From: an uncultured Candidatus Marinamargulisbacteria bacterium
GTDB lineage: Bacteria; Margulisbacteria; Marinamargulisbacteria; SXXA01; CAYGHZ01
Direction of reading: 5' to 3'
DNA length: 44,304 bases
Assembly (NCBI GenBank): GCA_964349635.1
Contig: CAYGHZ010000001.1
Location: forward strand, 1-44,304
The notes under the pieces are model-generated. The model had not been told where the DNA came from. It saw only the letters and a program-made list of their open reading frames with translations, and did no database searches. The translations under genes were made by a program, and so were the position numbers. This document shows positions 1,847-44,304 of the stretch, piece after piece; positions within the stretch are counted from its first letter, which is position 1; every line of letters begins with the position of its first letter.

Positions 1847-2094
1847 TACTGTACACCCAGCTTTCGAATTTAGCATATTTCCCAACTCTGTGAGGCTAAA
1901 TTCGACCTTTCCGTCCCGAAAAATCAGGTGCGGGAAAATCGTTTTCAAAATTCTTTAACTCTAGCCAGTAACTAGCCACACCGACCATAGGGGCGTACAG
2001 GTGTACGATGTGGGGTGTGGAATATTTACATAATGGCCTTTACGTATAGTATTAAGGGTATCGAACTATTTATTGCAAAGGAGGGAAATTTAAA

Positions 2095-2655: not shown

Positions 2656-2727
2656 GAACCTGATCACATTTTCGCAGGTTAAAGGTTCGGCTGATTCTAG
2701 TTATTTGGATCTACCAATTAATAATCC

Positions 2728-2879: not shown

Positions 2880-2905
2880 GCCTCGTTTTAGGGTAGAATA
2901 AAGTT

Positions 2906-3677: not shown

Positions 3678-3731
3678 TGCAAATAGTGTAGCTTCAATCG
3701 ACAGTAGAGGGAAATTGTGTTTAATAATTTC

Positions 3732-26656: not shown

Positions 26657-27451
26657 ATGTCGCTTTTCAAAGTTGTTCCCTTGCCACCATCTCGATTTCC
26701 TTTAGCTGTTTCGCGTCAATCGCTTGCCGCAGAAATGGGAAAGGCTCTTTTGGAAATAAAAGCGCATTCGAGGTTTAATGATGAGGGCGATGATTCGCTT
26801 AAATTACCTAGAAAATATTGGGAACCTATACCGTGTTACCATTACGAGGATGGTCGCCCAAGGAAATATACGGATGGCGCGTTCCGAGTCATAGGCGAAA
26901 AATCGCCGTCGAAGGCGCTGGCTAGTCTGGTGTCCTCCAAAGCAAACAATCGCTTGGAATGCGGGTCGACCGTTCTCGCTTCGATTTATTTGGGGCTCGT
27001 TCGTTTGTTAGGCCCTGAAGGCTTTGATCACATTTTTTCCAGACGCCTGGTCGCGATTGCGCCGCTAAACGTGAGCCTGACGAGAGTCGGATGCAAAGAA
27101 TTTACATGCGATCATCCCTTTTTCAGGCTGTTAACCCAAAGCACCGGAGAGACAAAAGTTGAACGCATCCAAGCGGGTGATATTGTTTATTTTAGAAACT
27201 ACGATAGGTACGAAGAACTCTGTCCCGACGGCGCCTTTGCCGGGGAATGGACGATATGTGTAAGGCACCAGCCCATACCGGTCTTCAATTGTTTCGGCAT
27301 CGAAGGAGATTTAGACGCGAATTCCGTAAAGGATGTTTTGAGGGAAAAGTACAAACACGATACCGGGCAACGCAAAACACCAGGGGGCCGACCCACTATT
27401 GATGAGGTCTTTCGGCCGGACTTGTCGAAACTTGGTATAGAATTAACTTAA
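26657..27451 (+). CDS. Tgl-type transglutaminase homologue, paralogue 2
   Basis: Shares LECGSTVLASIYLGLVRLLGPEGFDHIF and AGDIVYFRNYDRYEELCPDGAFAGEWTI with paralogue 1. It is transcribed divergently from a 142-bp intergenic region. Confidence 0.45.
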   Translation: MSLFKVVPLPPSRFPLAVSRQSLAAEMGKALLEIKAHSRFNDEGDDSLKLPRKYWEPIPCYHYEDGRPRKYTDGAFRVIGEKSPSKALASLVSSKANNRLECGSTVLASIYLGLVRLLGPEGFDHIFSRRLVAIAPLNVSLTRVGCKEFTCDHPFFRLLTQSTGETKVERIQAGDIVYFRNYDRYEELCPDGAFAGEWTICVRHQPIPVFNCFGIEGDLDANSVKDVLREKYKHDTGQRKTPGGRPTIDEVFRPDLSKLGIELT

Positions 27452-31240: not shown

Positions 31241-31600
31241 ATGCCTGCCATTCTTGTGGTCGATGACGAAGAAATTATTCTTCAGAGTTTTATTCGCATC
31301 CTGGAAAAAGAAGACTTAACTCTATTTACCGCCCAGGATAAAAAAGGGGCCCTTGAAAAGCTGGAAAATCCCATTTCTTTGTTTATTTGCGATGTGCGGA
31401 TGCCCGATGTCGATGGCCTCGAACTGATCAAAAACGCCAAAGAAAAAAATCCTCTTTTAAAGACCATTCTTTTAACCGGATTCGAAGACGCGACAATTCG
31501 AGAAGCCGCCGAGAAATTACATGTCGACCTATTGTTGACCAAACCCATTCGCGATATCGGGGGGTTTGTTCAAGCTATTCACCGTTTACTTAACTCCTAG
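31241..31600 (+). CDS. stand-alone response-regulator receiver domain (CheY-like)
   Basis: Contains the VVDDEE acidic pocket, the phospho-acceptor context FICDVRMPDVDG and LLTKP Lys. It is 119 aa with no output domain. It starts 2 nt after the upstream stop. Confidence 0.85.
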   Translation: MPAILVVDDEEIILQSFIRILEKEDLTLFTAQDKKGALEKLENPISLFICDVRMPDVDGLELIKNAKEKNPLLKTILLTGFEDATIREAAEKLHVDLLLTKPIRDIGGFVQAIHRLLNS

Positions 31601-31604
31601 TCCC

Positions 31605-32471
31605 ATGCGCCTCGTTTGGTTACCGGCGCTTTTACTCTTTGCTGCTTTGCCTGCATTTGGCGTCACATCAAACGTCACGGCAAAATTAGGCGCCATTTCC
31701 GGCAATAGCCGCTATCAGATTGGCGAGAAGTCGCCCGTCAGCGAACTAGTTTTCCCTTTGAACACGCTTCTTTTCCAGGCTGAAGGCGGGATCTCCTGGG
31801 AAAACGTGGTGTTTTTTCGGGTTGGCTTGGGAAAAAATATCAGCTCCTACAGCGGAAAAATGACCGATTCAGACTGGGACTCTTCGGGAAACCTGGAGAC
31901 CTACTCCGAAAGCGACTCCGATCTAAATCTTTTTACAGCCGACGCCCATTTCTTGGTGAACTGTATCGAAACGCCGGTCAATGGCCTGCGCGTGGGATTG
32001 GGCTATTATTATCAAAATTTTGATTTTACTATCAGCAACACCCGACAAACCTACCCCTCCAGCAACAAACCGCCGGAATACATTCCTGACAAAACGCTTT
32101 TATACTCCATCGTTTATCATATTCCCGTTTTTGAGATAGTGGGATATTCACATTGGCAAGCCATTCGATCTTCGCTTGCCATTGGATATTCTCCGTTTGT
32201 GACCAGCCAAGACAGCGACAACCACATTTTACGCTCCCGAGTTGGCGACGGGAACCAGCGAGGCCAGGTCTGGATTATTGACTCCCAGCTTCATTACCAG
32301 GCCACCCCTCAATTATCCTTCTCGATTGACGCGCATTATCTCAAGACGGTTGGTTTTGGGCGCCAGGTTCAAACAGAATACGGGTCTTCGCCCCGCACCC
32401 TCGGAATAATCGACCAAACGGTTGCCAGTGACCAATATTCGGTTCTATTTGGTTTAAGGCACATGTTCTAA
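31605..32471 (+). CDS. omptin-like (peptidase A26-like) outer-membrane beta-barrel protease
   Basis: Signal peptide MRLVWLPALLLFAALPAFG. MTDSDWDSSGN resembles OmpT MVDQDWMDSSN (Asp83/Asp85). SQDSDNH resembles OmpT SSDNDEH (Asp210/His212). The C-terminal GLRHMF resembles OmpT GLKYTF. I chose the start at 31605 to avoid overlapping the receiver gene. Confidence 0.55.
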   Translation: MRLVWLPALLLFAALPAFGVTSNVTAKLGAISGNSRYQIGEKSPVSELVFPLNTLLFQAEGGISWENVVFFRVGLGKNISSYSGKMTDSDWDSSGNLETYSESDSDLNLFTADAHFLVNCIETPVNGLRVGLGYYYQNFDFTISNTRQTYPSSNKPPEYIPDKTLLYSIVYHIPVFEIVGYSHWQAIRSSLAIGYSPFVTSQDSDNHILRSRVGDGNQRGQVWIIDSQLHYQATPQLSFSIDAHYLKTVGFGRQVQTEYGSSPRTLGIIDQTVASDQYSVLFGLRHMF

Positions 32472-32517: not shown

Positions 32518-33129
32518 ATGAACAAGAATAAACACATCAGTTTAACTTTGATCCTGATAATGCTGGCGGTAGCCCCGTTTTTTTCTCCAATCCAGGCTGG
32601 CCTGCAGTTCACGTCTCTTTCGCTCAACACCATCCTTCACTTTGGGTCCGGCTTTATCAATAACTTTAAAGATTTTGGCGGCCGGGACACGCGAGGCACC
32701 TTTACCAATAACCAGAAAGGCCTATCTATCTTAGGAGTTAGCTTTCAAAGCGTCGGCCAGACGATGGATGATCTCTCGCAGGGGAACATGTCATTAGCTA
32801 TGGCTATTAACGATGACGATTCGGAAGCCAAAGTCGATAAAGAACCCCTTGTTTACCCTAATCCGTTTCGCCAGGAGCAGGGAGCCCAGTTGGGTTACTC
32901 TCTCAACAAAAACATGGACCTCGAGATTCACATCTATAACATGCTCGCACAGAGAATCACCCAAAAGATTTTCTATAAGGGAGTCAACGGCGGCCACCAG
33001 GGATACAACAAGGTCGACTTCAATTTGGGCACTTGGGACGGATACGTCTTATCGGCGGGGGTTTATTTTTACGTACTGATGAATAACGGCAAGGTTTTGG
33101 CGAAGGGGAAGATGGCGGTAATCCCATGA
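32518..33129 (+). CDS. small secreted protein with T9SS-CTD / FlgD-Ig-like C-terminal domain
   Basis: Has an N-terminal signal/anchor. The C-terminal ~90 aa begin with the hallmark VYPNPF, followed by L.I.IYN..., SAGVYFYVL and K.AVIP, as in type-A sorting / FlgD-Ig domains. Confidence 0.5.
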   Translation: MNKNKHISLTLILIMLAVAPFFSPIQAGLQFTSLSLNTILHFGSGFINNFKDFGGRDTRGTFTNNQKGLSILGVSFQSVGQTMDDLSQGNMSLAMAINDDDSEAKVDKEPLVYPNPFRQEQGAQLGYSLNKNMDLEIHIYNMLAQRITQKIFYKGVNGGHQGYNKVDFNLGTWDGYVLSAGVYFYVLMNNGKVLAKGKMAVIP

Positions 33130-34058
33130 AACGACACATTTTAGCGATTTTACTTTTGCTCGGTTTATTGAGCCAGCCTGCCCAGGCTGGCGGAGACTTT
33201 TTTATGGTGTCCGACGTTGGCTCTTCAGCGCGAATGATTCGCATGGGGAATATCGAAGGATTTTCCGAATTTGCCAATGGCGTTTTTGAAAACCCCGCTT
33301 CACTCTATCGAACCAAGCGATTTTCCGCCTCTGTTTTCACGACAACGTTTATGAACGAAGTCCAATACAAAAACCTTTCGGTAAGCACGAAACTGCCGTT
33401 TGGGACCCTTGGGCTTGGCTATATGACCGCCGGGGTGGGCGCCATCCCTCGCACCTATGAATCGGTCGCAACTACCCCTGGCGAAGAGTCAACATTTGAT
33501 GTCGGCGGATATTTTGATTATAACAATACTATGGCTAAGGTCTCGTATGAGCTGTCCCAAACCGAAAATCTCCATTTTGGCACTTCCTTGACCTACTATG
33601 CCTCCACCATCGATACGCATTCCGGTCGAGGCTTTAACTTTGATGCCGGGATTGTGGCTGTCGCCCGACCTCTGACCCTTTCCGTGGTCGCCAAGAACGT
33701 CGTGCCCTCGCTCAAGGTTAATTATTCGAACGGACAGTCTGAAACCTTGCCGCTGCAAACCAGCTATAGCGCCCTGTATCATATCGGTAATTTTGATTTG
33801 CTGGGTCAGCTTCGGGCTATTGGCAATAACCAAAAATTCATGAAATCGTTTGCCGTTAACTATTCCCCTCATTTTGTTCCGTTCTTCCATATTTCCGGTG
33901 GCTATAAGGAATTTCCGGTGATACGGGATATTAAGAGCAACTATGTTTTGGGACTAGGATTAGATGTTTTCGATGTTAGCTTCGATTACGCCTACGAACG
34001 TAGCGAGCATATCGAATACAACAATAAGCACTACTTTTCCGTTGCGTTTTCGTACTAA
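33126..34058 (+). CDS. outer-membrane beta-barrel, PorV/PorQ/FadL-like
   Basis: Signal peptide ending AQAGG. SSARMIRMGN....A.GVFENPASL matches the (A/S)R..(G)MG...A......NPA.L N-terminal signature of PorV/PorQ/FadL-type barrels. It shows an alternating beta pattern and an aromatic C-terminus (VAFSY). The ATGA overlaps the upstream gene. Confidence 0.5.
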   Translation: MKRHILAILLLLGLLSQPAQAGGDFFMVSDVGSSARMIRMGNIEGFSEFANGVFENPASLYRTKRFSASVFTTTFMNEVQYKNLSVSTKLPFGTLGLGYMTAGVGAIPRTYESVATTPGEESTFDVGGYFDYNNTMAKVSYELSQTENLHFGTSLTYYASTIDTHSGRGFNFDAGIVAVARPLTLSVVAKNVVPSLKVNYSNGQSETLPLQTSYSALYHIGNFDLLGQLRAIGNNQKFMKSFAVNYSPHFVPFFHISGGYKEFPVIRDIKSNYVLGLGLDVFDVSFDYAYERSEHIEYNNKHYFSVAFSY

Positions 34059-34074
34059 CATAGGGAAAACCTGA

Positions 34075-34140
34075 ATGAAATGGGGACTAACTTTAGTTTT
34101 ATTGGCATCGCTTAGTTTCGCTTCCGCGACCCTGGCGGCC
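34075..34140 (+). other. signal peptide of the giant protein
   Basis: MKWGLTLVLLASLSFASATLAA followed by EKP: a positive N-terminus, hydrophobic core and A-x-A-like cleavage context. Confidence 0.7.
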
Positions 34141-37100
34141 GAAAAACCCGTTACCATCACCTTTCAAGCCACTCTTTACTCCCCGATCATCGGACTTTTA
34201 GAAGGCAGCCATATGGTGACCGCCGGCATTTATTCGGGCAAAAAGCCCCCGGCGATTTGGAGGGAGGGCCGGCGATCCGTTTCGTTTAAGAAGGGGGCAT
34301 TTAGCCTCATTCTTGGCGCGCAGGATCCTACGAACAACGCACTTTTACCCGCACATTTTGATATCGCCTCGCCCACGCTGGGCCTTATTATTTACGATCA
34401 GCTTTTTTTCTTTCCGATAACGTCTATTCCTTATGCCATTAAGAGTATCGTCGCTGAAGAGGCCTTGCAGGCGCCTGCGGAGGGAATTTCAGGCGATTTT
34501 ACCTCGCGCGTCGCCATTAATGCGCCTTTGTTCGTCGACCAAAAGACATTTTACGTCGACCCGCTGAAAAACCGGGTTGGCATCGGAACAACCCAGCCCA
34601 TGGCCGAATTGGATGTCATCGGCAAAATTGATTCTAAGGGCTTACTGGTTAATGGCAAAAGTTTCATCGACACCGTCGCCTGGCAGCCTAATAAGTCCGT
34701 CGTGAAAACGATTCACACAAAGACTAGCGTTGGCATCGGCACGACTCGACCGATCTTTGGATTGCATGCCACCGGCACGATTAATGCAATGGCCTATACG
34801 ATCAACGGGCAACGAATAGACGGAATTCTCGACTGGCAACATCCGGCCGTCGTCTCCGATCTTTATTTTCGCAAAGGGGGAAATATCGGCATTGGCAGTG
34901 CGGACCCCCGCTCCAAGTTGGACGTTCGAGGCTCATTGCGGGTCGGGGAAAGCGCCGATACCGTTAGCGGCAATATTCGATGGAACCCCATCACATCGAA
35001 AATTGAAGGGTTCAATAATACTCAATGGCTTCCTCTGACCGGTATCGTCGGACAGGGCGTGGCCAATAGTCCGGTGTTTTGGACAAGTTCTCAAGAATTC
35101 GGTAATAGCGCCTCATTTTTCTGGGACAGCGCTAAAAGCTATTTGGGCCTCGGGACCAAAACGCCTCGCGCTTGGTTGACTATTCAATCGGACGGGGCAG
35201 CGCCGTCGTTTATCGCTTCCGCCAACCAGAATTTGGTTTTTGTGGGCGCCAATAACAACATCGGGATCGGCACCAGCACTCCCAACCAGAAATTAAGGGT
35301 TCGCGGACTTTTAGATAGTGACGAGTTAACCATTGGCGGCCTTAATCTGAGGCTTGCTTTATCCACCGGAACATTTTGGCTTCGAAACCCCAAAGATAAT
35401 AGCTTGTTTTATACGCTAGGGAACGTCGGCATTGGCCGGCCTGATCCAGGCAGCTTATTGGAATTATCCGGTCGCAACGTCGCCGCCGGAGGTAAATCAC
35501 AAAACCCCGCCATGACCTTCTCGTCCTCATCCGCCAGTTTCACGATGGGAGCGGATTTGGCCGATAGCGGCGTCTTTAGAATCGAAGCCGGAAAAGTGCT
35601 TGGCGTCAGTACGCCTTTATTTATCGCTCTCGAGGATCGATTGGCTATCGGAATCCGCCATCCGCAGGCGAACTTGCATGTCAGCGGAAACGCCGGAGTC
35701 GTTTTAGCCGGAAAATTTTTTGGCTCGCCCGAATCGTTTGGAATTCAGCAGGCGCTGGATAAAAGAGAACCGGGTGTGGTCATTATTACGAAGAATATTC
35801 CCGCGGAAGGTCCCGGCACACGAATGCTTTGGTTTGCCAAGCGCGCCGCCTTTCGAGCCGGCCACTTGGACACCCTGGGCCTGTCGGGCGGCAAAGAATG
35901 GAACGAAGACAATTTAGGAAAGTTTTCGGTTGGTTTTGGCCATAATACGCGTCCGGGAGGAGCTGTCTCCGCTGTTTCGGGGGGCCAATCCAATACGGCG
36001 GATGGCGCGTATGCCACCGTTTTGGGCGGGTCTGGCAATAGCGCTGCGGGCGATTTTAGCGTCGCCGGCGGCCAACGCGCCAAGGCGCTTCATGCCGGTA
36101 GCTTTGTCTGGGCGGATTCTCAAAGCCGAGACCTTGTCTCCCATCACGAAAATCAGTTTCTTATTCGCGCCCAAGGCGGGGTTGCGATAGGAACCACCCA
36201 GACTCTTTTTAACGATCAGCGCGTCGCGTTGACTGTGGCTGGCAAGGCGGTGCTTGGGAATGCATTTGTTTCCTCACCCCAACAGATTAACGAAGCCCTT
36301 TCCGCCGAACTTCGAAACGACCTTCGCAGACACAATTATATTAACGATGACGGCAGTTTTACCTCGCAATTCTCTTCGCTGAATCCCCTTCAGGTAGACC
36401 CGACTCACAATGCCTACGCTTTCTTTATGAGGACCGTTTTGACCACAATTTATGACTCATCGATCATCAAAGCCGGGATTGTGGTTAAGAACACCGGGAA
36501 GGTCGCGATAGGCGCCGCCGATCCCGGGAAAAGCCGGCTCTTAGTCTCCGGCGGAGCGGTTCATATTGGATTGCCGACCGCGACCTCAAACGGAAATGTT
36601 GTGGTGCGTTCCTCTGCCGATCTTCCCAATATCTTTATGGCGCACGGCGTTAAGGACAATGCCAAAAATCCCGCGATGGCGGTGGTGGATCTGGGGCACA
36701 CCGGATTTGGCCTGTTTCCGACTATTTTTACCGCCATTCAAAAGCCCGGGCTTCAAGTCGGCAGCGGAAATATCGCCGCAACGGCCTATAAACTGCCGGA
36801 CAACACCTCGCTGGGCGTGGTTCCGATTGAGCCGTGGGAAATTGTATTGGCCACCCCTAATGTCTATTTCCCGACGGGCAACATCGAACATATGCGAACT
36901 CATCCCGGAAACGTGGGTATTGGCACCACATTGCCCAAATCCGCTTTCGAGATTTCCAACATCGGCAGCGTCCAGTTTGACACCCCCAAAAACGCGGCCA
37001 TGTCGATTCAGTCATTTACAATGGGCATCAATCATTTGTTACCTGATGTTTTCCGAGTCGAAAAGAATTTGACTCTGGATAGCGCAAGTCCTCTATTGAC

Positions 37101-40100
37101 ATTAAAAAATGCAACTATTGGGATGGGAATCCTTAACCCGCAAGCGCAATTGCATGTAGGCGCCACCGCCCTTTTTAATGGCACGGTGCGCTTCACCCCA
37201 ACGCCAATTCCCAATGCGCCGGTGGTTCCCCCGTTTGGATTCAGCCCCGCCCCGGCCGACACCTCCTATATCGCTACGGCGCCCACGGTCAATGTCACGA
37301 CACTTTTTGTAAACCATGAATTGTTTGAAGCGTCCGGAAGTAAATGGAATGTATTAAGCAATAACGACATCTTCAAACCGGCCATTGGAAGCTTCGTGGG
37401 GATCGGCACCACTCAACCTCAAACCATGCTGGCCGTTATCGGAACGATCAACGCTACCAAACTCGTGGTCGCCAAAAATCTGAAAGTAACCAATGTCCTC
37501 CGCTTAGGGCAGCTTAATTTTCGGGACGGTGGCGATCTAGCCAGTCTCGTTGTTAAGAACGGGAAATTGGTTCAGCAGGACACGATTTTTGTTTCCGATA
37601 CGTTGTCTGCCGGATCCGGCTCCGGAGGCAAGATTGCCTTTTGGGTTGAAGATCCGACCGTGGCGTCTCTTTCTCTGTTGGCTGAGACCCATTTTGTTTG
37701 GACCAGTCCGACCCCCTCCAAAGCCGGAACGCTTAGTCTGACTGGCAATTTTGCCGTATCCAACACGCGCACGGCGGCTTCTAGCTTTAGCGTCAAAAAT
37801 GACTCGATCCTCGGGACGGCCAACGCCAATTCGGCCTATACCATTACCTCAGGGATTGGGCACAACGGTTTTTATAACCTCCATTCCCGCGACTTCTCAA
37901 ACTCCAAAATTACGATCGGCATTGATTCGTGGCTCGGTTCTCCGGCGACTTCCGAGATTACGGGCGCTAAGGTAGTCGTGGCTAACCGACCGGGCGTGCT
38001 CCTGACGCAAAACGGCTCGGCCCGAGGTCTCACGATTGACGTTTCTAAAGTCAATGTTCAGGCCGCCGGTGATCGCGGATTCAAATATGCCGCATTATTT
38101 AACGGAAACGTCGGTATTAATACCTTTCCGGTTCCGGATCCCCTTTCGCAATATATCTTGGACGTGAAGGGAACCGTCGTTGCAACGCAATTCAACATCA
38201 CAAAGCGTCTTTCGGTTAGTACGATCAATGTTCAAACCAATGTGTTGCGAGTGACCGATGCGGGCAAGGTCGGCATCGCTACACAAACTCCCAAAACCGC
38301 CATTGAAATTATCGGAACTGTTCTGGCCAAGCAATTCAAGGTCAAAGGAGCCGACATTACGAATCTCGATATACGTCAAGGCAGCTTGGTCGTCAACACG
38401 CAGCAACCTAATAGCGTCGGCATGGGCACATCGGCGCCCGGCGCTCAGCTGGAGATTCGAAGAGATTTCTCGAGCACTCCGGCCTCTGACTATTCGGCGC
38501 AAGTTATTAGTGCGAATGCCCAAAGTATCACGCACAACATCACCGCCGTGGATCTCGATATTCAATCTGCGGATTTTAGAAATATATTAGGCAAGCCGGG
38601 CGAACCCCATATCGCGACCGGGATCAATATCAACCTGTCGGGAACGGCAGCCACCGAAAATGCGGTCATTACCGGCTTCAAGGCGATCATGAACCCCGCC
38701 GACGTTACACGCAATGCCGCCGCGATCTTGTTGGGCGGCAATGTCGGCGTCAACATTTCGGAACCGACAGTTTTATTAGATATTTTGGGCACAATCCGCG
38801 CCAATAACGTGGTTCAAACCAACTTATTAACCAAGCAGAAACGCGCTTCCTTTGGCCGCCTGGATTTGACCACACCTAACGTTAGCATCACCGGCGACAC
38901 GTTGATCGCGAAAGATATTCGGGTTTCTACCTTTAATGCGCTTGCGTCAGATGGCGCTACTCAAAGCAAGCTGATTGTTAATCAAAAACTCAATTTGCCA
39001 GGGATTCTTCTCAACGTTGCCGGAACGTGGCTGGGAAAAACCATTTCGGTCAACCAAACTGTAACGGCAAAGCAGGCTCAATATCATGACAATGCAATCG
39101 CCGTTCGGGGCCATTTTGACGGCGTCGGCCTTGGTCAAAGCGCACCTACGAAAGGCCTTGTCGTGTCCAACACGTTAACTGCCAAGCGTATGGTTGTTAG
39201 AAACAGCCTCAACTCGCGGTCGATTCAGTTCCATACCACCGGAGTGATTTCCGATTTGAACGGAAACATCGGCATTAATACGTCGGTAGCCAGCAACCGT
39301 CTTCATATCAATCCTGTTCTTTCAAGCAACCCTGCATTCAATAGCGCCGACAATACCACGTGGCAAGCCCTTAGGGTTCATTCCACAACCTCCACGATTA
39401 ACGGCATAGTTTTTGTGCCCGAATCGGGCACAGCGACAGACACCGGCGCCGGCATTGCCGCGCTACGAACGGTTAGGGGCTCTCATTTGGCAATTATTAC
39501 GGACCCAGATAACGGATTGCCCGTCGAACAGGTTCGGATTACGAATGCCGGTAACGTCGGCATCGGAACCACGGCGCCGGACCGGTTGTTGAAGGTCGCC
39601 GGTACAGCGCGATTTGAAAACGATTTGACTCTCTCGTCGCCCGCACAACTCAATGCCTCGGTTATTCAGGGCCGTAGCGGATCGGGCATTACCATACCTA
39701 ATCTGCTCGCGATCACCGCCACCGCAAACGTCTCCGCCAATGTCATTACGGATAAATTTATTTCGATTCGCACCCTGACAAAACCGGGTAGTGTGGTAGA
39801 CGCGGGCGCCTTATTTGACAACGGCGGCCTGTTTTACCAATTTACGACATCGGGAAATTTGACTCAGTTTTTGTCCAATAAGACAGGGACCATCCCTTTC
39901 TTTAACGACAAGCAAAAACTGACCGACACGTCGGCGCTATCCTGGACCGCAAGTTCCGGAATCTTTCGGGTGGGTACCGCCAATATGAAATTAAGAAACA
40001 AACCCTTGGTTGACGTGGTTAATACCATCCCGTCCAAGAATCTTATTGCGACGCCGTTTACCGCCCATTCCATTCGACTGTCCTTTTTGGATCGCCCAAT

Positions 40101-43100
40101 CGACGCCAGCTCGCAATTCGGCAAAACACTATTTGCAGGTCTAAATATCAATTTACCCAAACAGTATATCCCTCTCACCGAAACGGCCCGGGGATTGGCT
40201 ATTAGTGTTGTAAGCCTAAATGCGGTGAGCAGCACGCCGTTACCTTCCGAAGAAGATTTCTCAATCGAAGGGCGAAAATTTGCCGCTTCGTTTGTGGGTG
40301 GCGCCGTTGCCATTATCGCCTCGCCTAACGTTGCGTTGCGGCCCAGCGCCGATCTCATGGTGGTTGGTTATGGCTCGCATATGGACGCCCTTAGAATCGG
40401 CGACGGGCTTGCTGTTGATCCGTCGGGCAGAGTGGGAATTGGAACCACGCTACCTACCGCAAAAACAACGATTAAAGGCAACGGAATTGTACTGCAAGCC
40501 CAAGATAGCCTAGGCATCGAATTGATGAAGATTCGGGATAACGGCTATGTCGGCTTCGGCGTCTCCCGGAATGTGGCCCAAATGACCGAAATAGCGGGAA
40601 CGGTCAGCGCCAACGTCATGAAAGCAGGTCGCCTCATAGGTTCGATTTTGAGCGCCGGAGGCTCGAAGTTAGTCGTTCTGGCCAATAAGAACGTGGGGAT
40701 CGGAACAAGCACCCCGGCGGCTCAATTTGAAAATCAGCAAATTATTTCAAGCCCGACTGACCCCCGAACCATGCTTGAAAAAATTGAGCAACGCCTTGGC
40801 ACAACTATCATCGCCAATCTCACCGGCCTTTCGATTGTGGTAACCAGCAATTCGCTTAGCAATACGTTTGGGCTGGTTGGAACCCCTAAGACTGCCCTTG
40901 GACTGAATATCGCCGCTACTCAGCTTCAATTGCATCCTAGCGCCAATGCCGTTGGCCTGCGCGTCACCGTTCCAAATATCGCCGTTAGCCGAAACGCCGC
41001 TATTTTACTGGGTGGAAACGTCGGGATCGGGACTACCACCCCCACGGCTAGTTTGGCGATTGTAGGCACGCTGCGCGTGTCAGGGCCGACATTTTTCACG
41101 TCTAGTTCGGCATTCAGTACCACGCAGATTGCGTCGTTTAACCGGATGGTAGTCACAGCTGGTGCGCCAAATATAAATACCGCTACTTTCAAAGGCCTGG
41201 TCACCGTCACCAAAAACATGACCTTCGCCAATAGTGTTTCTTTATTTAAGAAACTTACCGGACGAGTTTCCGCCGGCGGCATCGTTGCCGGTCGCGGTCA
41301 AATCGCCAACGTCGCCGTTGCCACGGTCAACCGCACGGCTACCCGATTCAACATGGTTGGCAAGGCTAAATTTACCGGCTTGCTGGTAAAAAATACACTC
41401 TTCTCCAACACCATTACGGCCAACGCCGGCATTACAGTCACTTCGCCCATGATCATCGACGGAGCGGCCACGGTCACCCACAATGCTTTCACGAATTTCC
41501 TTTCGTTAAACTCGATCGCCAATCCCGCCCAGAATGTGTCGGAATATTTGTTTACCTATTCAAATCAACTTCGCTACCGTTCCGGCGGAGTAACTGCCAA
41601 TCTTAGCGCAAGCGCCTCGGGCGTGCCCGGCCAGTTGCCCTTTTATGACCAATCAAAATCCGTTAGCGGCAACACTTTCTTAAACTGGGCCATTAATAAT
41701 CAGTCCCTGGTATCCACGCTAAATGTCCGATTGATGGCTCTTAAATCTACGATTGGCTCAGCCGTTTCCGGCGTCCATGACGCGCAACGCCTAGTCCTTA
41801 AGTTCCTGGATCGACCGCAAAATACCGGCGTTGTTAATCAAGGGGATTACCTGTTCGCGGGCCTTCATGTTATGTCGACCGGCAACACCACCGTCACCCT
41901 CAACGAAACGATGACCGGACTGCGGGTGAGCGTGGCGTCTCTTAATGCGCAAAGCTCGACCATATTGCCCCCTGATGAGGGCGGCTCGATCATTTCCGGC
42001 CAAAAATATGCCGCGACGTTTTTAGGCGGCGGCCTGAGCATTGCTACCAAACCAACCAAAGGCGTGGTTACGGGCAATGCCTCGCTCTATGTCAATCACG
42101 GATTCACCTCGAACCCTGCGTTTCGGATTGATTCACCGACGTCTAACCTGTTTGCCGTCTACCCCGGATTCGTGGGTATCGGCTCTACAACCTATGGCGG
42201 CCGATTAACGGTGACCTCGAATCTAGAAGTGCTATCCGGCGGATTAAGTCGATTTAAAGTCACCCCCGCAGGTCAAATCGGAATCGGAACGTCGGAGCCT
42301 GGCGCGAATCTCCATCTCGTCGGCTCGTTTAAAGTTACGTCTAACGCTGTGACCCGAATGATGATCAATTCCGTGGGACAGATCGCGTTTAATCGCGCAA
42401 CGTCGGACGCTTCCCTTCGAGTAAGTGGCGACGCACAACTAGGCAATGGATTGTGGTTATCATCCGGCAAGGCCAGTATTGGTCGTATCGCAAGCACTTA
42501 TTATCCGTTAGCGGTTTCCGGCAACATCGTTTCCGGGCAACAAATTTTCCCAACAAATCGAATTCTGGCCTGGTCGACCTCGGCCAATATCGTTGAACGG
42601 GCCGGCAATGAAGTGATGCGCATCACAGACCAAAAATCTCTTGCAATAGGCACTAAATTACCCAGCGCAAGCCTTCACGTCTTTGCCGCGGCGCCAAAAA
42701 ATATTTTCCATCTCAGCAAATCCGCCTCACCCAATATTATGGTTATCACCAACACGGGGCTTATCGGACTTGGTACTCACCTTCCCTCCGCCAACCTTCA
42801 TATTCTTGGCAAGTTAAAGGCTAATCGGATCATTGACCGGCCGACACTACTGATCGCGCCTAATATTATTGTGACCAACAACAAGACTGGCGCGAATAAC
42901 TTTAAGATCGCCAATCAAGTCACCTCCGGCGAAGCGGCGACTGGCTTTGCGTCCTCGATTGCCTTATCCAGTGACAGCGATAAATCGTTGATGGGTCTTT
43001 CCATAAAACTAAAATCCACCGTGACACAGAACAACCCGCGAGTTGTCGGCCTTCGGGTTAACAACGCTCTCTTCTCCGAAGACGCCAATCTCGCCACCGA

Positions 43101-44304
43101 TGACGGCGTGAAATATTCCGGCATCTTTATGGGTGGCAATGTCGGGATTGGCACAGATACCCCGGCGTACCCTCTCGATGTTAAATCCACGAACTTGAAT
43201 GGCATCGCATTAAATATGGGTGCCATTGCCGCGCTGATTAGCTCCAACAACGTTTCACCCGGCGGCGCGATCCAACGAGGATCAATGTTAATTGTCTCGG
43301 GCAATGGAACAGCTCTCAAGGTCGAAACCATTCCGACCGAAGCCTTCAAAACAATCGCCTACGAAAGCTCGGGTGCCCCGCAAGGGTATTATCAGGTCGA
43401 TGACACTAAAGCCTCGACACTAATGACCCAATTGAAATCCGGCGGCATTATTAACTCGTCTTACCAATTGATTCCCGCCAGCCTTACCGCTCTTAAAACA
43501 GCCTTGGGAGCCTATGGAAACTACGTCGACGGCAACTTTGTTTCGACGCAAAACGTTTTCCGGGCGTTGGCGCCTTACCTTCAAAAAAGCTTTATTTCCC
43601 TCACGCCGACGGGTAACGGTGCAGTTCTTGGTCAATTAGGCACGATAACTCGCAATACAATCGTGATCAGCACTGGCACCGGACCGCTTTTGCCCGAAAT
43701 CAACGCCGGCGCGGCGGTGGGAAGCAAGGTCAAAAATGCCTTTGCCTTTACCGGACGGGTCGGCATCAATATGAGAAAAGCCGATACCATTCAAAATGTT
43801 TTAGACAAGACCTTGGTGGTCAACGGCGATATGAAAGTCGGCATTACGCAGGAAGGCTTCGTTCAGGATCAAACCCGGTTATATTTCTCGGGTGGCCCGA
43901 CAATCGCCCCCGTGGTCAACTCGGACAACACCAACCCGATGTTTATTGCGCGCCACAACGACAACGTAAATGTCACCAGCTTGCAAATCAGCGTCGGAAC
44001 CGATGCCCAAAGCCCCACCAAGCCGGACGCCAAATTCCGGGTGGGTTATACGCAAAACAATGCGTTTAACAGCGTCTTTGACGTTCGCGTCAGCACGATC
44101 AGCCAGTTCCCCGACCACATCAACACCGGCCTGCTTGACCCTGCCAGCCTTTCCAACGACCCCGCCGGATTTGTCGGCGTGGGCACCAGCAATGCCAAAG
44201 CGACGCTGCATGTCGTAGCCGACAAAAGCTATTTGGACCCTACTGGTACCGGGGCCAACCTTATCAATACCTTTGTAACCAATAATGTCTCCATCATCCA
44301 AAAT
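34075..44304 (+). CDS. giant secreted repetitive fibre/adhesin-like protein, 5' part only (3,410 codons visible; continues beyond the window)
   Basis: I hand-translated every codon from the ATG at 34075 to 44304 and found no in-frame stop. The window ends on a codon boundary (..NNVSIIQN). All track ORFs in this span are short, and the plus-strand ones all lie in a different frame. It has a signal peptide, recurrent protein motifs and a coherent amino-acid composition. Confidence 0.9.
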   Translation, partial: MKWGLTLVLLASLSFASATLAAEKPVTITFQATLYSPIIGLLEGSHMVTAGIYSGKKPPAIWREGRRSVSFKKGAFSLILGAQDPTNNALLPAHFDIASPTLGLIIYDQLFFFPITSIPYAIKSIVAEEALQAPAEGISGDFTSRVAINAPLFVDQKTFYVDPLKNRVGIGTTQPMAELDVIGKIDSKGLLVNGKSFIDTVAWQPNKSVVKTIHTKTSVGIGTTRPIFGLHATGTINAMAYTINGQRIDGILDWQHPAVVSDLYFRKGGNIGIGSADPRSKLDVRGSLRVGESADTVSGNIRWNPITSKIEGFNNTQWLPLTGIVGQGVANSPVFWTSSQEFGNSASFFWDSAKSYLGLGTKTPRAWLTIQSDGAAPSFIASANQNLVFVGANNNIGIGTSTPNQKLRVRGLLDSDELTIGGLNLRLALSTGTFWLRNPKDNSLFYTLGNVGIGRPDPGSLLELSGRNVAAGGKSQNPAMTFSSSSASFTMGADLADSGVFRIEAGKVLGVSTPLFIALEDRLAIGIRHPQANLHVSGNAGVVLAGKFFGSPESFGIQQALDKREPGVVIITKNIPAEGPGTRMLWFAKRAAFRAGHLDTLGLSGGKEWNEDNLGKFSVGFGHNTRPGGAVSAVSGGQSNTADGAYATVLGGSGNSAAGDFSVAGGQRAKALHAGSFVWADSQSRDLVSHHENQFLIRAQGGVAIGTTQTLFNDQRVALTVAGKAVLGNAFVSSPQQINEALSAELRNDLRRHNYINDDGSFTSQFSSLNPLQVDPTHNAYAFFMRTVLTTIYDSSIIKAGIVVKNTGKVAIGAADPGKSRLLVSGGAVHIGLPTATSNGNVVVRSSADLPNIFMAHGVKDNAKNPAMAVVDLGHTGFGLFPTIFTAIQKPGLQVGSGNIAATAYKLPDNTSLGVVPIEPWEIVLATPNVYFPTGNIEHMRTHPGNVGIGTTLPKSAFEISNIGSVQFDTPKNAAMSIQSFTMGINHLLPDVFRVEKNLTLDSASPLLTLKNATIGMGILNPQAQLHVGATALFNGTVRFTPTPIPNAPVVPPFGFSPAPADTSYIATAPTVNVTTLFVNHELFEASGSKWNVLSNNDIFKPAIGSFVGIGTTQPQTMLAVIGTINATKLVVAKNLKVTNVLRLGQLNFRDGGDLASLVVKNGKLVQQDTIFVSDTLSAGSGSGGKIAFWVEDPTVASLSLLAETHFVWTSPTPSKAGTLSLTGNFAVSNTRTAASSFSVKNDSILGTANANSAYTITSGIGHNGFYNLHSRDFSNSKITIGIDSWLGSPATSEITGAKVVVANRPGVLLTQNGSARGLTIDVSKVNVQAAGDRGFKYAALFNGNVGINTFPVPDPLSQYILDVKGTVVATQFNITKRLSVSTINVQTNVLRVTDAGKVGIATQTPKTAIEIIGTVLAKQFKVKGADITNLDIRQGSLVVNTQQPNSVGMGTSAPGAQLEIRRDFSSTPASDYSAQVISANAQSITHNITAVDLDIQSADFRNILGKPGEPHIATGININLSGTAATENAVITGFKAIMNPADVTRNAAAILLGGNVGVNISEPTVLLDILGTIRANNVVQTNLLTKQKRASFGRLDLTTPNVSITGDTLIAKDIRVSTFNALASDGATQSKLIVNQKLNLPGILLNVAGTWLGKTISVNQTVTAKQAQYHDNAIAVRGHFDGVGLGQSAPTKGLVVSNTLTAKRMVVRNSLNSRSIQFHTTGVISDLNGNIGINTSVASNRLHINPVLSSNPAFNSADNTTWQALRVHSTTSTINGIVFVPESGTATDTGAGIAALRTVRGSHLAIITDPDNGLPVEQVRITNAGNVGIGTTAPDRLLKVAGTARFENDLTLSSPAQLNASVIQGRSGSGITIPNLLAITATANVSANVITDKFISIRTLTKPGSVVDAGALFDNGGLFYQFTTSGNLTQFLSNKTGTIPFFNDKQKLTDTSALSWTASSGIFRVGTANMKLRNKPLVDVVNTIPSKNLIATPFTAHSIRLSFLDRPIDASSQFGKTLFAGLNINLPKQYIPLTETARGLAISVVSLNAVSSTPLPSEEDFSIEGRKFAASFVGGAVAIIASPNVALRPSADLMVVGYGSHMDALRIGDGLAVDPSGRVGIGTTLPTAKTTIKGNGIVLQAQDSLGIELMKIRDNGYVGFGVSRNVAQMTEIAGTVSANVMKAGRLIGSILSAGGSKLVVLANKNVGIGTSTPAAQFENQQIISSPTDPRTMLEKIEQRLGTTIIANLTGLSIVVTSNSLSNTFGLVGTPKTALGLNIAATQLQLHPSANAVGLRVTVPNIAVSRNAAILLGGNVGIGTTTPTASLAIVGTLRVSGPTFFTSSSAFSTTQIASFNRMVVTAGAPNINTATFKGLVTVTKNMTFANSVSLFKKLTGRVSAGGIVAGRGQIANVAVATVNRTATRFNMVGKAKFTGLLVKNTLFSNTITANAGITVTSPMIIDGAATVTHNAFTNFLSLNSIANPAQNVSEYLFTYSNQLRYRSGGVTANLSASASGVPGQLPFYDQSKSVSGNTFLNWAINNQSLVSTLNVRLMALKSTIGSAVSGVHDAQRLVLKFLDRPQNTGVVNQGDYLFAGLHVMSTGNTTVTLNETMTGLRVSVASLNAQSSTILPPDEGGSIISGQKYAATFLGGGLSIATKPTKGVVTGNASLYVNHGFTSNPAFRIDSPTSNLFAVYPGFVGIGSTTYGGRLTVTSNLEVLSGGLSRFKVTPAGQIGIGTSEPGANLHLVGSFKVTSNAVTRMMINSVGQIAFNRATSDASLRVSGDAQLGNGLWLSSGKASIGRIASTYYPLAVSGNIVSGQQIFPTNRILAWSTSANIVERAGNEVMRITDQKSLAIGTKLPSASLHVFAAAPKNIFHLSKSASPNIMVITNTGLIGLGTHLPSANLHILGKLKANRIIDRPTLLIAPNIIVTNNKTGANNFKIANQVTSGEAATGFASSIALSSDSDKSLMGLSIKLKSTVTQNNPRVVGLRVNNALFSEDANLATDDGVKYSGIFMGGNVGIGTDTPAYPLDVKSTNLNGIALNMGAIAALISSNNVSPGGAIQRGSMLIVSGNGTALKVETIPTEAFKTIAYESSGAPQGYYQVDDTKASTLMTQLKSGGIINSSYQLIPASLTALKTALGAYGNYVDGNFVSTQNVFRALAPYLQKSFISLTPTGNGAVLGQLGTITRNTIVISTGTGPLLPEINAGAAVGSKVKNAFAFTGRVGINMRKADTIQNVLDKTLVVNGDMKVGITQEGFVQDQTRLYFSGGPTIAPVVNSDNTNPMFIARHNDNVNVTSLQISVGTDAQSPTKPDAKFRVGYTQNNAFNSVFDVRVSTISQFPDHINTGLLDPASLSNDPAGFVGVGTSNAKATLHVVADKSYLDPTGTGANLINTFVTNNVSIIQN
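34570..44220 (+). repeat. about 30 dispersed protein-level copies of the motif G-N-V-G-I-G-T-x-x-P-x-x-x-L-x-V-x-G
   Basis: Strict GN[VI]G[IV][GN] copies start at 34879, 35419, 36907, 38104, 38737, 39262, 39550, 41014 and 43135. Looser copies include NRVGIGTTQPMAELDVIG at 34570, QIGIGTSEPGANLHLVG at 42274 and FVGVGTSNAKATLHVVA at 44170. Codons differ between copies, so there is no long DNA-level repeat. Confidence 0.8.
35815..36195 (+). other. YadA-head / Hep_Hag-like repeat segment within the giant protein
   Basis: GTRMLWFAKRAAFRAG...WNEDNLGKFSVGFGHNT..GGAVSAVSGGQSNTADGAYATVLGGSGNSAAGDFSVAGGQRAKALHAGSFVWADS...NQFLIRAQGGVAIGT. The short G-x-x-N-x-A-x-G repeats and the FVW.DS...NQF.IRA.GGV ending are typical of trimeric-adhesin-head / tail-fibre-like proteins. 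Confidence 0.5.

What the first reader, a model, noticed from the sequence alone, without database searches (positions are those of the whole stretch)
34075..44304. Giant ORF of at least 3,410 codons that runs off the window and is missing from the supplied ORF track
The track shows only short ORFs (60-168 aa) over the last 10.2 kb, which makes the region look non-coding or recoded. Reading the plus strand from the ATG at 34075, 17 nt after the preceding gene's stop, gives one uninterrupted frame to the last base of the window. The track most likely dropped it because it never reaches a stop. The product has a signal peptide and is rich in G/N/T/S/A/V/I. I saw no Cys codon in my manual translation. 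The N-terminal domain (ITFQATL...IW.E....SF.KGAFSLILG....SIPYAIKS) resembles the N-termini of much shorter tail-fibre-like proteins. Genes this large are rare in bacteria and have recently been highlighted in some uncultivated lineages. The true length, C-terminus (sorting signal) and function are unknown.
Basis: seen in the sequence. Interest (0 to 1): 0.9.

Follow-up and report, generated by a model that had tools for sequence, protein, structure and literature searches.

The report
Giant MAT-like surface fibre gene
The open frame is a real, about 93% complete gene for a roughly 3,650-residue secreted fibre protein from an uncultivated Margulisbacteria-related bacterium; it looks like a several-fold enlarged relative of the tail-fibre-like adhesion fibres of the predator Bdellovibrio, and is always encoded next to two outer-membrane partner genes.

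Summary
Observation confirmed. Window 34075-44304 (+) is one frame of 3,410 sense codons with no stop and no Cys. It was missing from the ORF track only because it runs off the contig.

It is not an orphan. An exhaustive HMMER search finds an unnamed family of collinear proteins, median 3,535 aa. The one member with a taxon label comes from a Margulisbacteria MAG. Three full-length relatives place the window's last residue about 245 aa before the C-terminus, so the full length is about 3,650 aa.

Predicted architecture:
- Sec signal peptide.
- An N-domain of about 115 aa, distantly related to the Bdellovibrio MAT anchor domain.
- About 3,300 aa of stalk. A profile of the window's own repeats hits solved MAT fibres (Bd2133, E = 8.5e-20).
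- In relatives only, a phi29 gp12-type (Peptidase_G2) self-cleaving chaperone plus a coiled coil.

In the window and all five related metagenome loci, the gene follows a small protein with a T9SS type A sorting domain and a PorV/PorQ-like outer-membrane barrel.

Best reading: a trimeric, cell-surface adhesion fibre of about 100 nm, a new giant variant of a known kind. It is not a phage gene, a trimeric autotransporter or an assembly artefact. The function, and any role for the two partner genes, is inferred rather than shown.

The parts
32518..33129 (+). Gene 1 of the conserved cassette. A 203-aa secreted protein whose C-terminal half (aa 112-199) is a T9SS type A sorting (CTD) beta-sandwich.
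   Evidence: TIGR04183 Por_Secre_tail scores 30.4 bits against a cutoff of 23. Homologues at 34-41% identity lie in the same position in L082-L086. All 6 copies match TIGR04183.
33126..34058 (+). Gene 2 of the cassette. A 310-aa PorV/PorQ-like outer-membrane beta-barrel with a signal peptide, ending ...FSVAFSY. Its start overlaps the stop of gene 1.
   Evidence: NF033709 PorV_fam gives E = 1e-13 over profile positions 10-325 of 326, at 51.6 bits, below the cutoff of 90. T9SS_PorQ gives E = 2.6e-10. Homologues at 37-43% identity lie directly upstream of the giant gene in L082-L086. All 6 copies hit PorV_fam and PorQ.
34059..34074 (+). 16-nt spacer carrying an AGGGA Shine-Dalgarno-like motif, with an in-frame TGA directly before the start codon.
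   Evidence: Sequence read. No promoter-like site lies on the + strand between 31000 and 34400, which is consistent with co-transcription with the upstream genes.
34075..44304 (+). Giant fibre gene, 5' about 93% (3,410 codons). It is cut by the contig end; about 245 codons are predicted to be missing.
34075..34137 (+). Sec-type signal peptide (aa 1 to about 21, ...ASATLA/AE).
   Evidence: By inspection. An N-terminal hydrophobic leader is present in all eight aligned relatives. No predictor was run.
34147..34494 (+). N-terminal beta-rich domain (aa about 25-140), the proposed cell-proximal anchor. It is distantly related to the Bdellovibrio MAT N-domain.
   Evidence: NF053851 Bdello_MAT_N gives E = 6.5e-4 at 19.5 bits against a cutoff of 60. 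It is hit by 13 of 31 family N-domains (best E = 1e-7) and is the only family hit. The domain is present in 79 of the top 150 representatives.
34495..36264 (+). Best-conserved proximal stalk (aa about 141-730), holding repeats of the type NVGIGTxxPxxxLxV.
   Evidence: 41% identity to P0027 over aa 15-729. 85-97% of relatives align over aa 156-620, and 75% over aa 621-775. PHROG tail-fibre families hit this region.
35887..36234 (+). YadA/UspA1-head-like beta-roll module (aa about 605-720) embedded in the stalk.
   Evidence: UspA1 3pr7/3ntn gives E = 0.003-0.009. Many 800-2,000-aa proteins match only this module.
36265..42921 (+). Long stalk of diverged repeats (aa about 731-2949). It includes an ancient super-module duplication, aa about 1411-2165 versus 2172-2741, at 30-39% identity.
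   Evidence: Self-comparison and motif map. A profile of 20 of the window's own repeats hits solved MAT stalks: Bd2133 8ond at E = 8.5e-20, then 8ojn, 8oml, 8ol4 and 8on4.
42922..43839 (+). Least conserved, distal segment (aa about 2950-3255), with a non-repeat insert. It is a candidate specificity or tip region.
   Evidence: Only 31-57% of 47 relatives align here, at 11-18% identity. The assignment as a binding region is an inference.
43840..44304 (+). Start of the conserved pre-chaperone block (aa about 3256-3410). The window ends at ...VSIIQN, just before the C-terminal module found in relatives.
   Evidence: Alignment A1 and BLAST to P0028, P0029, P0031, P0032 and P0054.

Best explanation
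The frame is the nearly complete gene for a secreted, homotrimeric cell-surface fibre of an uncultivated Margulisbacteria-related diderm bacterium. It is a giant member of the same structural kind as the Bdellovibrio mosaic adhesive trimer (MAT) fibres.

Proposed mechanism, with the status of each step:
1. Export to the periplasm by Sec. The signal peptide is seen in the sequence; export is inferred.
2. Trimerisation nucleated from the C-terminus by a phi29 gp12-type (Peptidase_G2) intramolecular chaperone and a terminal coiled coil. The chaperone then cuts itself off just before the invariant DYAEY motif. This module is shown in relatives only and is inferred for this copy, whose last ~245 aa lie off the contig.
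3. About 3,300 residues of NVGIGT-type repeats fold into an intertwined trimeric beta-prism/beta-helix stalk of roughly 100 nm. Homology to solved MAT stalks is shown; the length is extrapolated.
4. The conserved N-domain holds the fibre on the cell. The poorly conserved distal segment (aa ~2950-3255) provides binding specificity for other cells or particles. Both points are inferred.
5. The two genes always found directly upstream, a PorV/PorQ-like outer-membrane barrel and a small protein with a T9SS-type CTD, act as its dedicated outer-membrane partner for display or anchoring. The linkage is shown; the role is inferred.
For: - Real gene and correct frame.
- Family: 52 of the top 150 representatives have both the N-domain and the C-module, with a median length of 3,535 aa. 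The one member with a taxon label comes from a Margulisbacteria MAG. The window's ValRS is 55-59% identical to Margulisiibacteriota MAGs, against 45% or less elsewhere.
- Stalk: a profile built only from window repeats finds solved MAT fibres as the only significant PDB hits, led by 8ond at E = 8.5e-20. PHROG tail-fibre families also hit.
- N-domain: Bdello_MAT_N is the only NCBIfam family hit, by 13 of 31 members.
- C-module: Pfam Peptidase_G2 scores above cutoff in P0027 and P0032. The AF2 model core has pLDDT above 90. Its top Foldseek hits are the phi29 gp12 autochaperone, 3gqh and 3suc, both with probability 1.0. DYAEY aligns to residue 1 of the cleaved gp12 fragment.
- Cassette: conserved in order and strand in 6 of 6 loci, while the flanking genes differ.
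- Mosaic pattern: conservation is lowest in the distal segment.
- Chromosomal context of housekeeping genes.
Against: - The N-domain match is far below the curated cutoff (19.5 bits against 60).
- No usable structure model exists for any part of the window's own protein; the single-sequence AF2 run gave pLDDT 31.
- Trimerisation, surface exposure, self-cleavage and adhesion are all untested.
- The C-terminal module is not in the window.
- No route across the outer membrane is known. Full-length relatives carry no T9SS CTD or autotransporter anchor. A T9SS translocon has not been shown in this lineage, and no paper links the two.
- A short fibre with the same N-domain (P0187) has no barrel gene beside it, so the N-domain-to-barrel link is not general.
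Confidence: 0.7

Rival explanations
1. It is a T9SS-dependent filament analogous to Flavobacterium SprB. On this reading the giant protein is a cargo or associate of a type IX-like secretion and attachment system. The adjacent PorV/PorQ-like barrel plays the cargo-specific role that SprF plays for SprB, and the fibre might serve gliding or surface motility rather than static adhesion.
For: The conserved neighbours are a PorV/PorQ-family barrel and a protein with a type A CTD, in 6 of 6 loci. One barrel also touches PorP/SprF at E = 7.7e-4. The pairing of a giant adhesin gene with a barrel gene resembles sprB-sprF; that comparison rests on my own knowledge.
Against: Complete relatives have no CTD of any type and no SprB repeats; Pfam finds only Peptidase_G2. 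The stalk and C-module are of the tail-fibre/MAT type. No T9SS core gene lies in the window. No literature links T9SS with this phylum. This reading overlaps with step 5 of the best explanation rather than excluding it.
Confidence: 0.15
2. It is a structural surface-layer or sheath-like protein that coats the cell, rather than a discrete adhesive fibre.
For: It has a signal peptide, no Cys and a composition rich in G, A, T, S and N. It is large and repetitive.
Against: The repeats match trimeric fibre stalks specifically. Relatives end in a tailspike autochaperone, which is typical of spikes and fibres. No SLH or other S-layer domain is detected.
Confidence: 0.07
3. It is a phage, prophage or tailocin tail fibre captured in a bacterial contig.
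For: PHROG tail-fibre families hit the repeats. The same C-module ends a 384-aa fibre inside a contractile-tail baseplate cluster, P0182 in L090.
Against: The protein has a Sec signal peptide. The flanking genes are ValRS, MiaA, H+-PPase, an Opp transporter and an aminotransferase, with no phage genes. The cassette with outer-membrane proteins is conserved in 6 of 6 loci. GenBank phages give no match. IMG/VR gives only two weak repeat-level matches.
Confidence: 0.04
4. It is a trimeric autotransporter adhesin (type Vc).
For: Residues ~605-720 resemble the UspA1/YadA head (E = 0.003). The hit P0017 carries PF05658.
Against: Complete relatives have no YadA_anchor; their C-terminus is a Peptidase_G2 module plus a coiled coil.
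Confidence: 0.02
5. The long frame is an assembly chimera or a collapsed repeat.
For: The protein is repetitive, the contig ends inside the gene, and the data are short-read metagenomic.
Against: Internal repeats are only 25-40% identical at protein level. The DNA has no direct repeat of 30 nt or more. The frame is collinear end to end with independently assembled relatives from other samples.
Confidence: 0.02

Closest known systems
Bdellovibrio bacteriovorus mosaic adhesive trimer (MAT) fibres (Caulton et al. 2024, PMC10769870; structures 8ond, 8ojn, 8oml, 8ol4, 8on4)
   Same: Both have a signal peptide followed directly by a conserved beta-rich N-domain of about 115-130 aa, here a remote match. 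Both have a stalk built of the same NVGIGTxxPxxKLxV-type repeat. Both show a mosaic pattern with a conserved proximal end and a variable distal end. A subset of each ends in a self-cleaving intramolecular chaperone.
   Different: This protein is about 3.5-6 times longer: about 3,650 aa against 626-1,151 aa for the MATs named in the paper. The chaperone is of the Peptidase_G2 (phi29 gp12) type with a coiled-coil tail, not Peptidase_S74. The host is a Margulisbacteria-related lineage, not a known predator. The gene is always paired with a PorV/PorQ-like barrel gene and a CTD-protein gene. The N-domain scores far below the curated MAT_N cutoff.
Bacteriophage phi29 gp12 pre-neck appendage (tailspike) and its C-terminal autochaperone (MEROPS/Pfam Peptidase_G2; PDB 3gqh, 3suc), plus the Dpo31 tailspike chaperone domain D4
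   Same: The C-terminal module of full-length relatives has the same fold and the same D(Y/F)AEY motif at the position of the gp12 cleavage site.
   Different: This is a cellular, Sec-exported protein with a stalk of about 3,300 aa rather than an 854-aa phage spike. It has an extra terminal coiled coil. The module is not present in the window itself.
Flavobacterium johnsoniae SprB with SprF (a giant T9SS adhesin and its cargo-specific PorP-like barrel). This comparison rests on my own knowledge.
   Same: Both pair a very large filamentous surface protein gene with an adjacent small outer-membrane barrel gene of the T9SS accessory families.
   Different: There is no sequence similarity, no SprB repeats and no type B CTD on the giant protein. 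The barrel is PorV/PorQ-like rather than PorP/SprF-like. The phylum is outside Bacteroidota.
Very large and giant genes of Omnitrophota and other uncultivated lineages (West-Roberts et al. 2023, bioRxiv 10.1101/2023.11.21.568195)
   Same: Both are unusually long, poorly annotated genes from uncultivated bacteria. That paper lists Margulisbacteria among the non-PVC phyla rich in genes above 10,000 aa.
   Different: This gene is about 3,650 aa, well below that paper's 10,000-aa and 30,000-aa classes. It has one leader and no multiple TM regions, no SecA-like helicase and no enzymatic domains.

Membership tests
Bdellovibrio MAT (mosaic adhesive trimer) superfamily | N-terminal signal peptide | tested here: met
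   The leader MKWGLTLVLLASLSFASATLA/AE was judged by inspection. An N-terminal hydrophobic leader is seen in all eight aligned relatives. No SignalP-type tool was available.
Bdellovibrio MAT (mosaic adhesive trimer) superfamily | Conserved beta-rich N-domain of about 130 aa immediately after the signal peptide (NCBIfam NF053851, cutoff 60 bits) | tested here: inconclusive
   The window scores 19.5 bits, E = 6.5e-4. 13 of 31 family members hit at E below 0.01 (best 1e-7), and no other family is hit. This indicates remote homology; the curated threshold is not met. The structure model failed.
Bdellovibrio MAT (mosaic adhesive trimer) superfamily | Stalk of intertwined trimeric beta-prism/beta-helix repeats | tested here: met
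   Met at sequence level. The window-only repeat profile A7 hits Bd2133 8ond at E = 8.5e-20, 8ojn at 6.8e-11, 8oml at 3.9e-6, 8ol4 at 6.7e-6 and 8on4 at 2.7e-3. Trimer formation itself cannot be tested here.
Bdellovibrio MAT (mosaic adhesive trimer) superfamily | C-terminus is either a Peptidase_S74 chaperone or an adhesive tip domain | tested here: not met
   Relatives end in a Peptidase_G2-type chaperone plus a coiled coil, not S74. The window copy lacks its C-terminus. The function is analogous but the family is different.
Bdellovibrio MAT (mosaic adhesive trimer) superfamily | Surface display and binding to other cells' surface glycans | not testable with these tools
   Requires microscopy and binding assays.
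Peptidase_G2 / phi29 gp12-type autochaperone tailspikes | C-terminal IMC domain with the D-x-x-E motif at the self-cleavage site | tested here: inconclusive
   Met in relatives: PF11962 scores 33.3 and 27.3 bits on the C-terminal 330 aa of P0027 and P0032, and 25.7 bits on full-length P0027, against a cutoff of 25. Foldseek finds 3gqh at E = 2.5e-4 with probability 1.0. DYAEY aligns to residue 1 of the gp12 fragment. The window stops about 245 aa short, so this copy could not be tested.
Trimeric autotransporter adhesins (type Vc) | C-terminal YadA-type membrane anchor | tested here: not met
   There is no YadA_anchor in the complete relatives P0027 and P0029. Only a weak head-like module is found at aa 605-720.
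T9SS cargo proteins (Bacteroidota type) | C-terminal type A or type B sorting domain on the cargo itself | tested here: not met
   Neither complete relative scanned end to end (P0027, P0029) shows a Por_Secre_tail or type B CTD. The CTD lies on the separate 203-aa neighbour.
PorV/PorQ family (for the 310-aa neighbour) | Full-length match to NF033709 above 90 bits | tested here: inconclusive
   E = 1e-13 with end-to-end coverage, but 51.6 bits is below the cutoff. All 6 orthologues hit, best E = 2.5e-15. This is a homologue outside the curated family.
Giant genes in the sense of West-Roberts et al. 2023 | 10,000 aa or more (large) or 30,000 aa or more (giant) | tested here: not met
   The predicted total is about 3,650 aa. 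The family range is 1,173-5,651 aa.

The most novel reading that the evidence does not exclude
The three-gene cassette (small CTD protein, PorV/PorQ-like barrel, giant fibre) is a previously undescribed surface-fibre display system.

On this reading, T9SS-type accessory parts work outside Bacteroidota to mount a MAT-type fibre on the outer membrane. The barrel would hold the CTD adaptor, much as PorQ holds PorZ, and the adaptor would dock the fibre's N-domain. That would also offer a first concrete candidate for the kind of surface element that anchors MAT-type N-domains, which the MAT authors left open. It would further suggest that these Margulisbacteria-related cells attach to other cells through fibres of about 100 nm, in an epibiotic or predatory lifestyle.
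Probability: 0.2. Interest if true: 0.75.

Novelty: new variant of a known kind. Interest (0 to 1): 0.55.

Why it matters
The result turns an apparently blank 10 kb into a defined, testable object.

- It is an unnamed family: at least about 50 clusters at 50% identity, and every member whose name was looked up is annotated only as "hypothetical protein".
- Its members are fibres of about 3,500 residues built from the same parts as Bdellovibrio prey-recognition fibres and phage tail spikes, but in a candidate phylum with no cultured free-living representative.
- It extends the MAT-type architecture far beyond its known size range and host range.
- It shows that a gp12-type rather than an S74-type chaperone can cap such fibres.
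- It gives a strictly conserved gene neighbourhood that points to candidate outer-membrane partners.

If these cells use such fibres to hold on to other organisms, that bears on the ecology of Margulisbacteria. On a practical level, it shows that ORF tracks which drop end-truncated frames can hide the largest gene on a contig.

Tried and rejected
- Whole-protein word-indexed search: timed out.
- Word-indexed searches with aa 1-500, with the N-domain alone and with the C-module profile: these returned only short proteins or nothing. That index apparently does not surface the giant relatives. Only the exhaustive HMMER search found them.
- Extending the gene beyond the window:
  - A genome-collection scan with the last 600 aa found nothing.
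  - The upstream gene occurs only on the window's contig and on a 6.8 kb Logan contig from run ERR3094296, which breaks off 525 nt into the giant gene.
  - None of the C-module fragments is the missing tail.
- Pfam on the whole protein: no hit at E of 1 or below.
- Single-sequence AF2 of window aa 21-292: pLDDT 31, discarded. The family alignment could not be used for prediction because representatives-library sequences are not accepted.
It was repeated with 4 sequences.
- L088, a relative's C-terminus: a low-coverage, frameshifted contig with uninformative downstream context.
- Rejected readings: phage gene, trimeric autotransporter, assembly chimera and Omnitrophota-style giant gene. Reasons are given under the rival explanations and the membership test.

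Full report
**1. The observation**

Translating window 34075-44304 on the + strand gives 3,410 codons without a stop. The other five frames of the same stretch contain 91-262 stops, so the open frame cannot be chance.

The ATG at 34075 is immediately preceded by an in-frame TGA. It lies 16 nt after the TAA of the upstream gene, behind an AGGGA motif.

The product has no cysteine and is rich in G, A, T, S, L, V, N and I. The ORF lister states that it omits ORFs running off the source, and it lists nothing in this frame. That explains the empty track.

The upstream gene is found only on a 20-50 kb contig and on a 6.8 kb Logan contig of run ERR3094296. The first is presumably the window's own contig, so the gene is cut by a contig end.

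**2. The organism and context**

The window is ordinary bacterial chromosome:
- ValRS, MiaA, a PfkB kinase, a 7TM-HD protein and a CorC/CNNM transporter
- an H+-pyrophosphatase
- an Opp/Dpp ABC transporter
- an FAD oxidoreductase and an aminotransferase-GNAT fusion

It contains no tRNA genes and no phage genes.

ValRS is 55-59% identical to MAGs labelled Candidatus Margulisiibacteriota, UBP8_UBA817 or Marinamargulisbacteria, and 45% or less to everything else. The source is therefore a divergent member or relative of that candidate phylum.

**3. It belongs to a family of similarly large proteins**

Pfam finds nothing in the protein. Word-indexed homology searches return only short proteins that share a repeat.

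An exhaustive HMMER search with residues 1-1,200 against 1.84 billion cluster representatives gives 14,062 hits, 171 of them at E of 1e-30 or better. The top ~60 are proteins of about 2,900-4,850 aa that align collinearly from residue ~5 to ~730 at 32-39% identity. The best is P0027, 3,774 aa, E = 2.4e-218.

Pairwise BLAST shows collinearity over the whole length. For P0027, window aa 15-729 matches 6-742 and aa 804-3380 matches 758-3498.

Of the top 150 representatives, 79 carry the N-domain, 56 carry a conserved C-terminal module and 52 carry both. Those 52 have a median length of 3,535 aa, ranging from 1,173 to 5,651.

Every member that has a name is a "hypothetical protein". The one with a taxon label is MSR88196.1, from a Candidatus Margulisbacteria MAG.

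**4. True length and the missing end**

The window's last residues align to P0028 position 3205 of 3451, to P0029 position 3203 of 3457 and to P0027 position ~3498 of 3774. About 245 aa are therefore missing, and the full protein is about 3,650 aa.

All eight full-length relatives examined end in a conserved module of about 200 aa followed by a helical tail of about 50-60 aa. The module reads ...NFITF...G.IEGN..GGV.F.SPEADYAEYL...GD.VG...G.VSK.T.GA...MVISS.P...GN....VAF.GQVPVKV.G.V..GDYI..SG.NDG...A...AWE.

Several lines of evidence identify this module:
- Pfam calls it Peptidase_G2, the "IMC autoproteolytic cleavage domain". Scores are 33.3, 27.3 and 23.5 bits against a cutoff of 25, and 25.7 bits in full-length P0027.
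- An AF2 model of the module (12-sequence alignment, core pLDDT above 90) has only two PDB matches below E = 1e-3: the phi29 gp12 C-terminal autochaperone 3gqh (probability 1.0, TM 0.56 normalised to the target) and pre-mature gp12 3suc.
- In a profile search, the invariant DYAEY aligns to residue 1 of the gp12 C-terminal fragment (DFAEYFE). It also aligns to the "chaperone domain D4" of tailspike Dpo31.

From my own knowledge, gp12 cleaves itself exactly there after its trimer has folded.

The predicted missing end is therefore a self-removing trimerisation chaperone plus a coiled coil, not a sorting signal. This is inferred for the window copy.

**5. The stalk and the N-domain**

A motif of the type xNVGIGTxxPxxxLxV recurs about 24 times at irregular spacing. 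Internal repeats are old, at 25-40% identity. They include a super-module, aa ~1411-2165, that recurs at aa ~2172-2741. At DNA level there are no direct repeats of 30 nt or more.

A profile built only from 20 of the window's own repeats finds the crystal structures of Bdellovibrio MAT fibres as its only significant PDB hits:

| PDB entry | E-value |
|---|---|
| 8ond (Bd2133) | 8.5e-20 |
| 8ojn | 6.8e-11 |
| 8oml | 3.9e-6 |
| 8ol4 | 6.7e-6 |
| 8on4 | 2.7e-3 |

Those stalks are intertwined trimeric beta-prisms (PMC10769870). Residues ~605-720 also resemble the UspA1/YadA head beta-roll, weakly, at E = 0.003.

The N-domain (aa ~25-140) weakly matches NCBIfam Bdello_MAT_N, at 19.5 bits against a cutoff of 60. 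When 31 family N-domains are scanned, 13 hit this model (best E = 1e-7) and none hits anything else. I read this as distant homology, not membership of the curated subfamily.

The same N-domain and C-module also frame short proteins, for example P0187 at 506 aa.

**6. A conserved three-gene cassette**

Two genes lie directly upstream in the window:
- A 203-aa secreted protein whose C-terminal half passes the curated threshold for a T9SS type A sorting domain (TIGR04183, 30.4 bits against 23).
- A 310-aa protein that aligns end to end with the PorV/PorQ family (E = 1e-13, 51.6 bits, below the cutoff of 90) and ends in a typical beta-barrel terminus.

A degenerate-pattern scan of JGI metagenome contigs found five loci encoding family members, L082-L086. 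All five have the same order and strand, with the genes abutting or overlapping:
- CTD protein, 34-41% identity
- barrel, 37-43% identity
- giant gene

Genes further upstream differ between loci and even change strand. All six barrels hit PorV_fam and PorQ, and all six small proteins hit TIGR04183.

The pairing is not general. The short N-domain fibre P0187 has no barrel gene beside it. P0182, which has the C-module only, is a genuine tail fibre in a contractile-tail baseplate cluster.

**7. What it most likely is and does**

The evidence supports a Sec-exported homotrimeric surface fibre. Its parts would work as follows:
- The conserved N-terminal part is cell-proximal.
- The stalk of about 3,300 residues is of the MAT/tail-fibre type.
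- The C-terminal gp12-type chaperone drives trimer folding and is then cut off.

Conservation along the protein fits a "mosaic" fibre. Of 47 relatives, 75-97% align over most of the first ~2,300 residues (72% in one bin, aa 776-930). Only 31-57% align over aa ~2,950-3,255, at 11-18% identity, just before the conserved pre-chaperone block. This makes the distal segment the candidate specificity region.

Scaling from the MAT crystal fragments gives roughly 95-125 nm. The fragments measure 142 Å for 370 aa and 95 Å for 334 aa. This is an extrapolation.

The barrel and the CTD protein are the obvious candidates for a dedicated outer-membrane partner. In Bacteroidota, PorQ holds PorZ through a CTD-like domain, and SprF is a cargo-specific partner of the giant adhesin SprB (both from my own knowledge). 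That role, and the way the fibre crosses the outer membrane, are not shown. Complete relatives have neither a CTD nor an autotransporter anchor, and no paper in the library links T9SS to this phylum.

**8. Rivals**

- Phage or tailocin origin is unlikely. The protein has a signal peptide and sits in a housekeeping context. The outer-membrane cassette is conserved. GenBank phages give no match, and IMG/VR gives only two weak repeat-level matches.
- A trimeric autotransporter is excluded by the absence of a YadA anchor in complete relatives.
- An assembly chimera is excluded by collinearity with independent assemblies and by the lack of repeated DNA.
- An S-layer role cannot be excluded, but it fits the fibre-specific modules poorly.

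**9. Novelty and score**

The kind of protein is known: MAT fibres, and tail spikes with intramolecular chaperones. Four things are new here:
- the size class, about 3.5-6 times a MAT
- the G2-type chaperone with a coiled coil
- the phylum
- the strictly conserved pairing with T9SS-type accessory proteins

The gene is large but not in the 10,000-aa-and-above class discussed for uncultivated lineages. That paper does list Margulisbacteria among the non-PVC phyla rich in very large genes.

I rate it a new variant of a known kind, with interest 0.55. The most novel reading not excluded is that the cassette is a new fibre-display system, which would also point to how MAT-type N-domains are anchored. 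I give that a probability of about 0.2.

Noticed in passing
window 22787-23652 (+): A 112-aa HTH protein and a 176-aa protein with a weak nucleotidyltransferase (DUF2204) match lie between the two Opp/Dpp permease genes (21789-22739 and 23649-24458). The 176-aa gene overlaps both its neighbours by 4 nt. This may be a toxin-antitoxin-like pair inserted inside an ABC transporter operon.
   Followed up: no
window 25384-26514 (-) and 26657-27451 (+): Two divergently oriented genes both give sub-threshold matches to protein-glutamine gamma-glutamyltransferase (TGL, PF20085), at 21.5 and 22.6 bits against a cutoff of 23.7.
   Followed up: no
window 3732-6644 (-) and 9743-11317 (-): ORFs of 970 aa and 524 aa have no Pfam or NCBIfam match at all. 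Whether they relate to envelope or secretion functions is unknown.
   Followed up: no
window 28761-31238 (+): An 825-aa fusion of a class I/II aminotransferase with a GNAT-like Acetyltransf_6 domain. The same gene is present on the independent Logan contig L001.
   Followed up: no
window 31241-32471 (+): A stand-alone response-regulator receiver (119 aa) and an omptin-like outer-membrane barrel lie just upstream of the cassette. Neither was detected by tblastn (E 1e-4 or better) in the five related loci, so they are probably not part of it.
   Followed up: partly
P0027 and P0033 (Logan contig of 27,001 bp): Two different family members, 3,774 and 3,456 aa, are each reported on a contig of exactly 27,001 bp. 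This suggests tandem giant paralogues in one genome.
   Followed up: no
L083 14035-14071: The giant frame of this relative is broken into two overlapping ORFs of 1,830 and 1,968 aa. The cause could be a frameshift, a sequencing error or a genuine split gene.
   Followed up: no
L090 1-7155: The same C-terminal chaperone module ends a 384-aa fibre (P0182) encoded just downstream of Phage_base_V, Sheath_initiator and Baseplate_J genes. The module is therefore shared between cellular giant fibres and contractile-tail fibres.
   Followed up: partly
window ~43300-43560 (aa ~3075-3160) and ~36280-36350 (aa ~735-760): Short non-repeat, helix-like inserts interrupt the stalk, for example ...YYQVDDTKASTLMTQLKSGGIINSSYQLIPASLTALKTALGAYGNYVDGNF... 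and ...SAELRNDLRRHNYINDDG.... Similar inserts occur in P0038, P0043 and P0054. Their role is unknown.
   Followed up: no
window 34075-44304 versus the rest of the window: The giant ORF has a higher G+C content (about 0.51-0.535) than most of the window (0.39-0.50), with GC3 of 0.58. This is partly explained by its Gly/Ala-rich composition.
   Followed up: no
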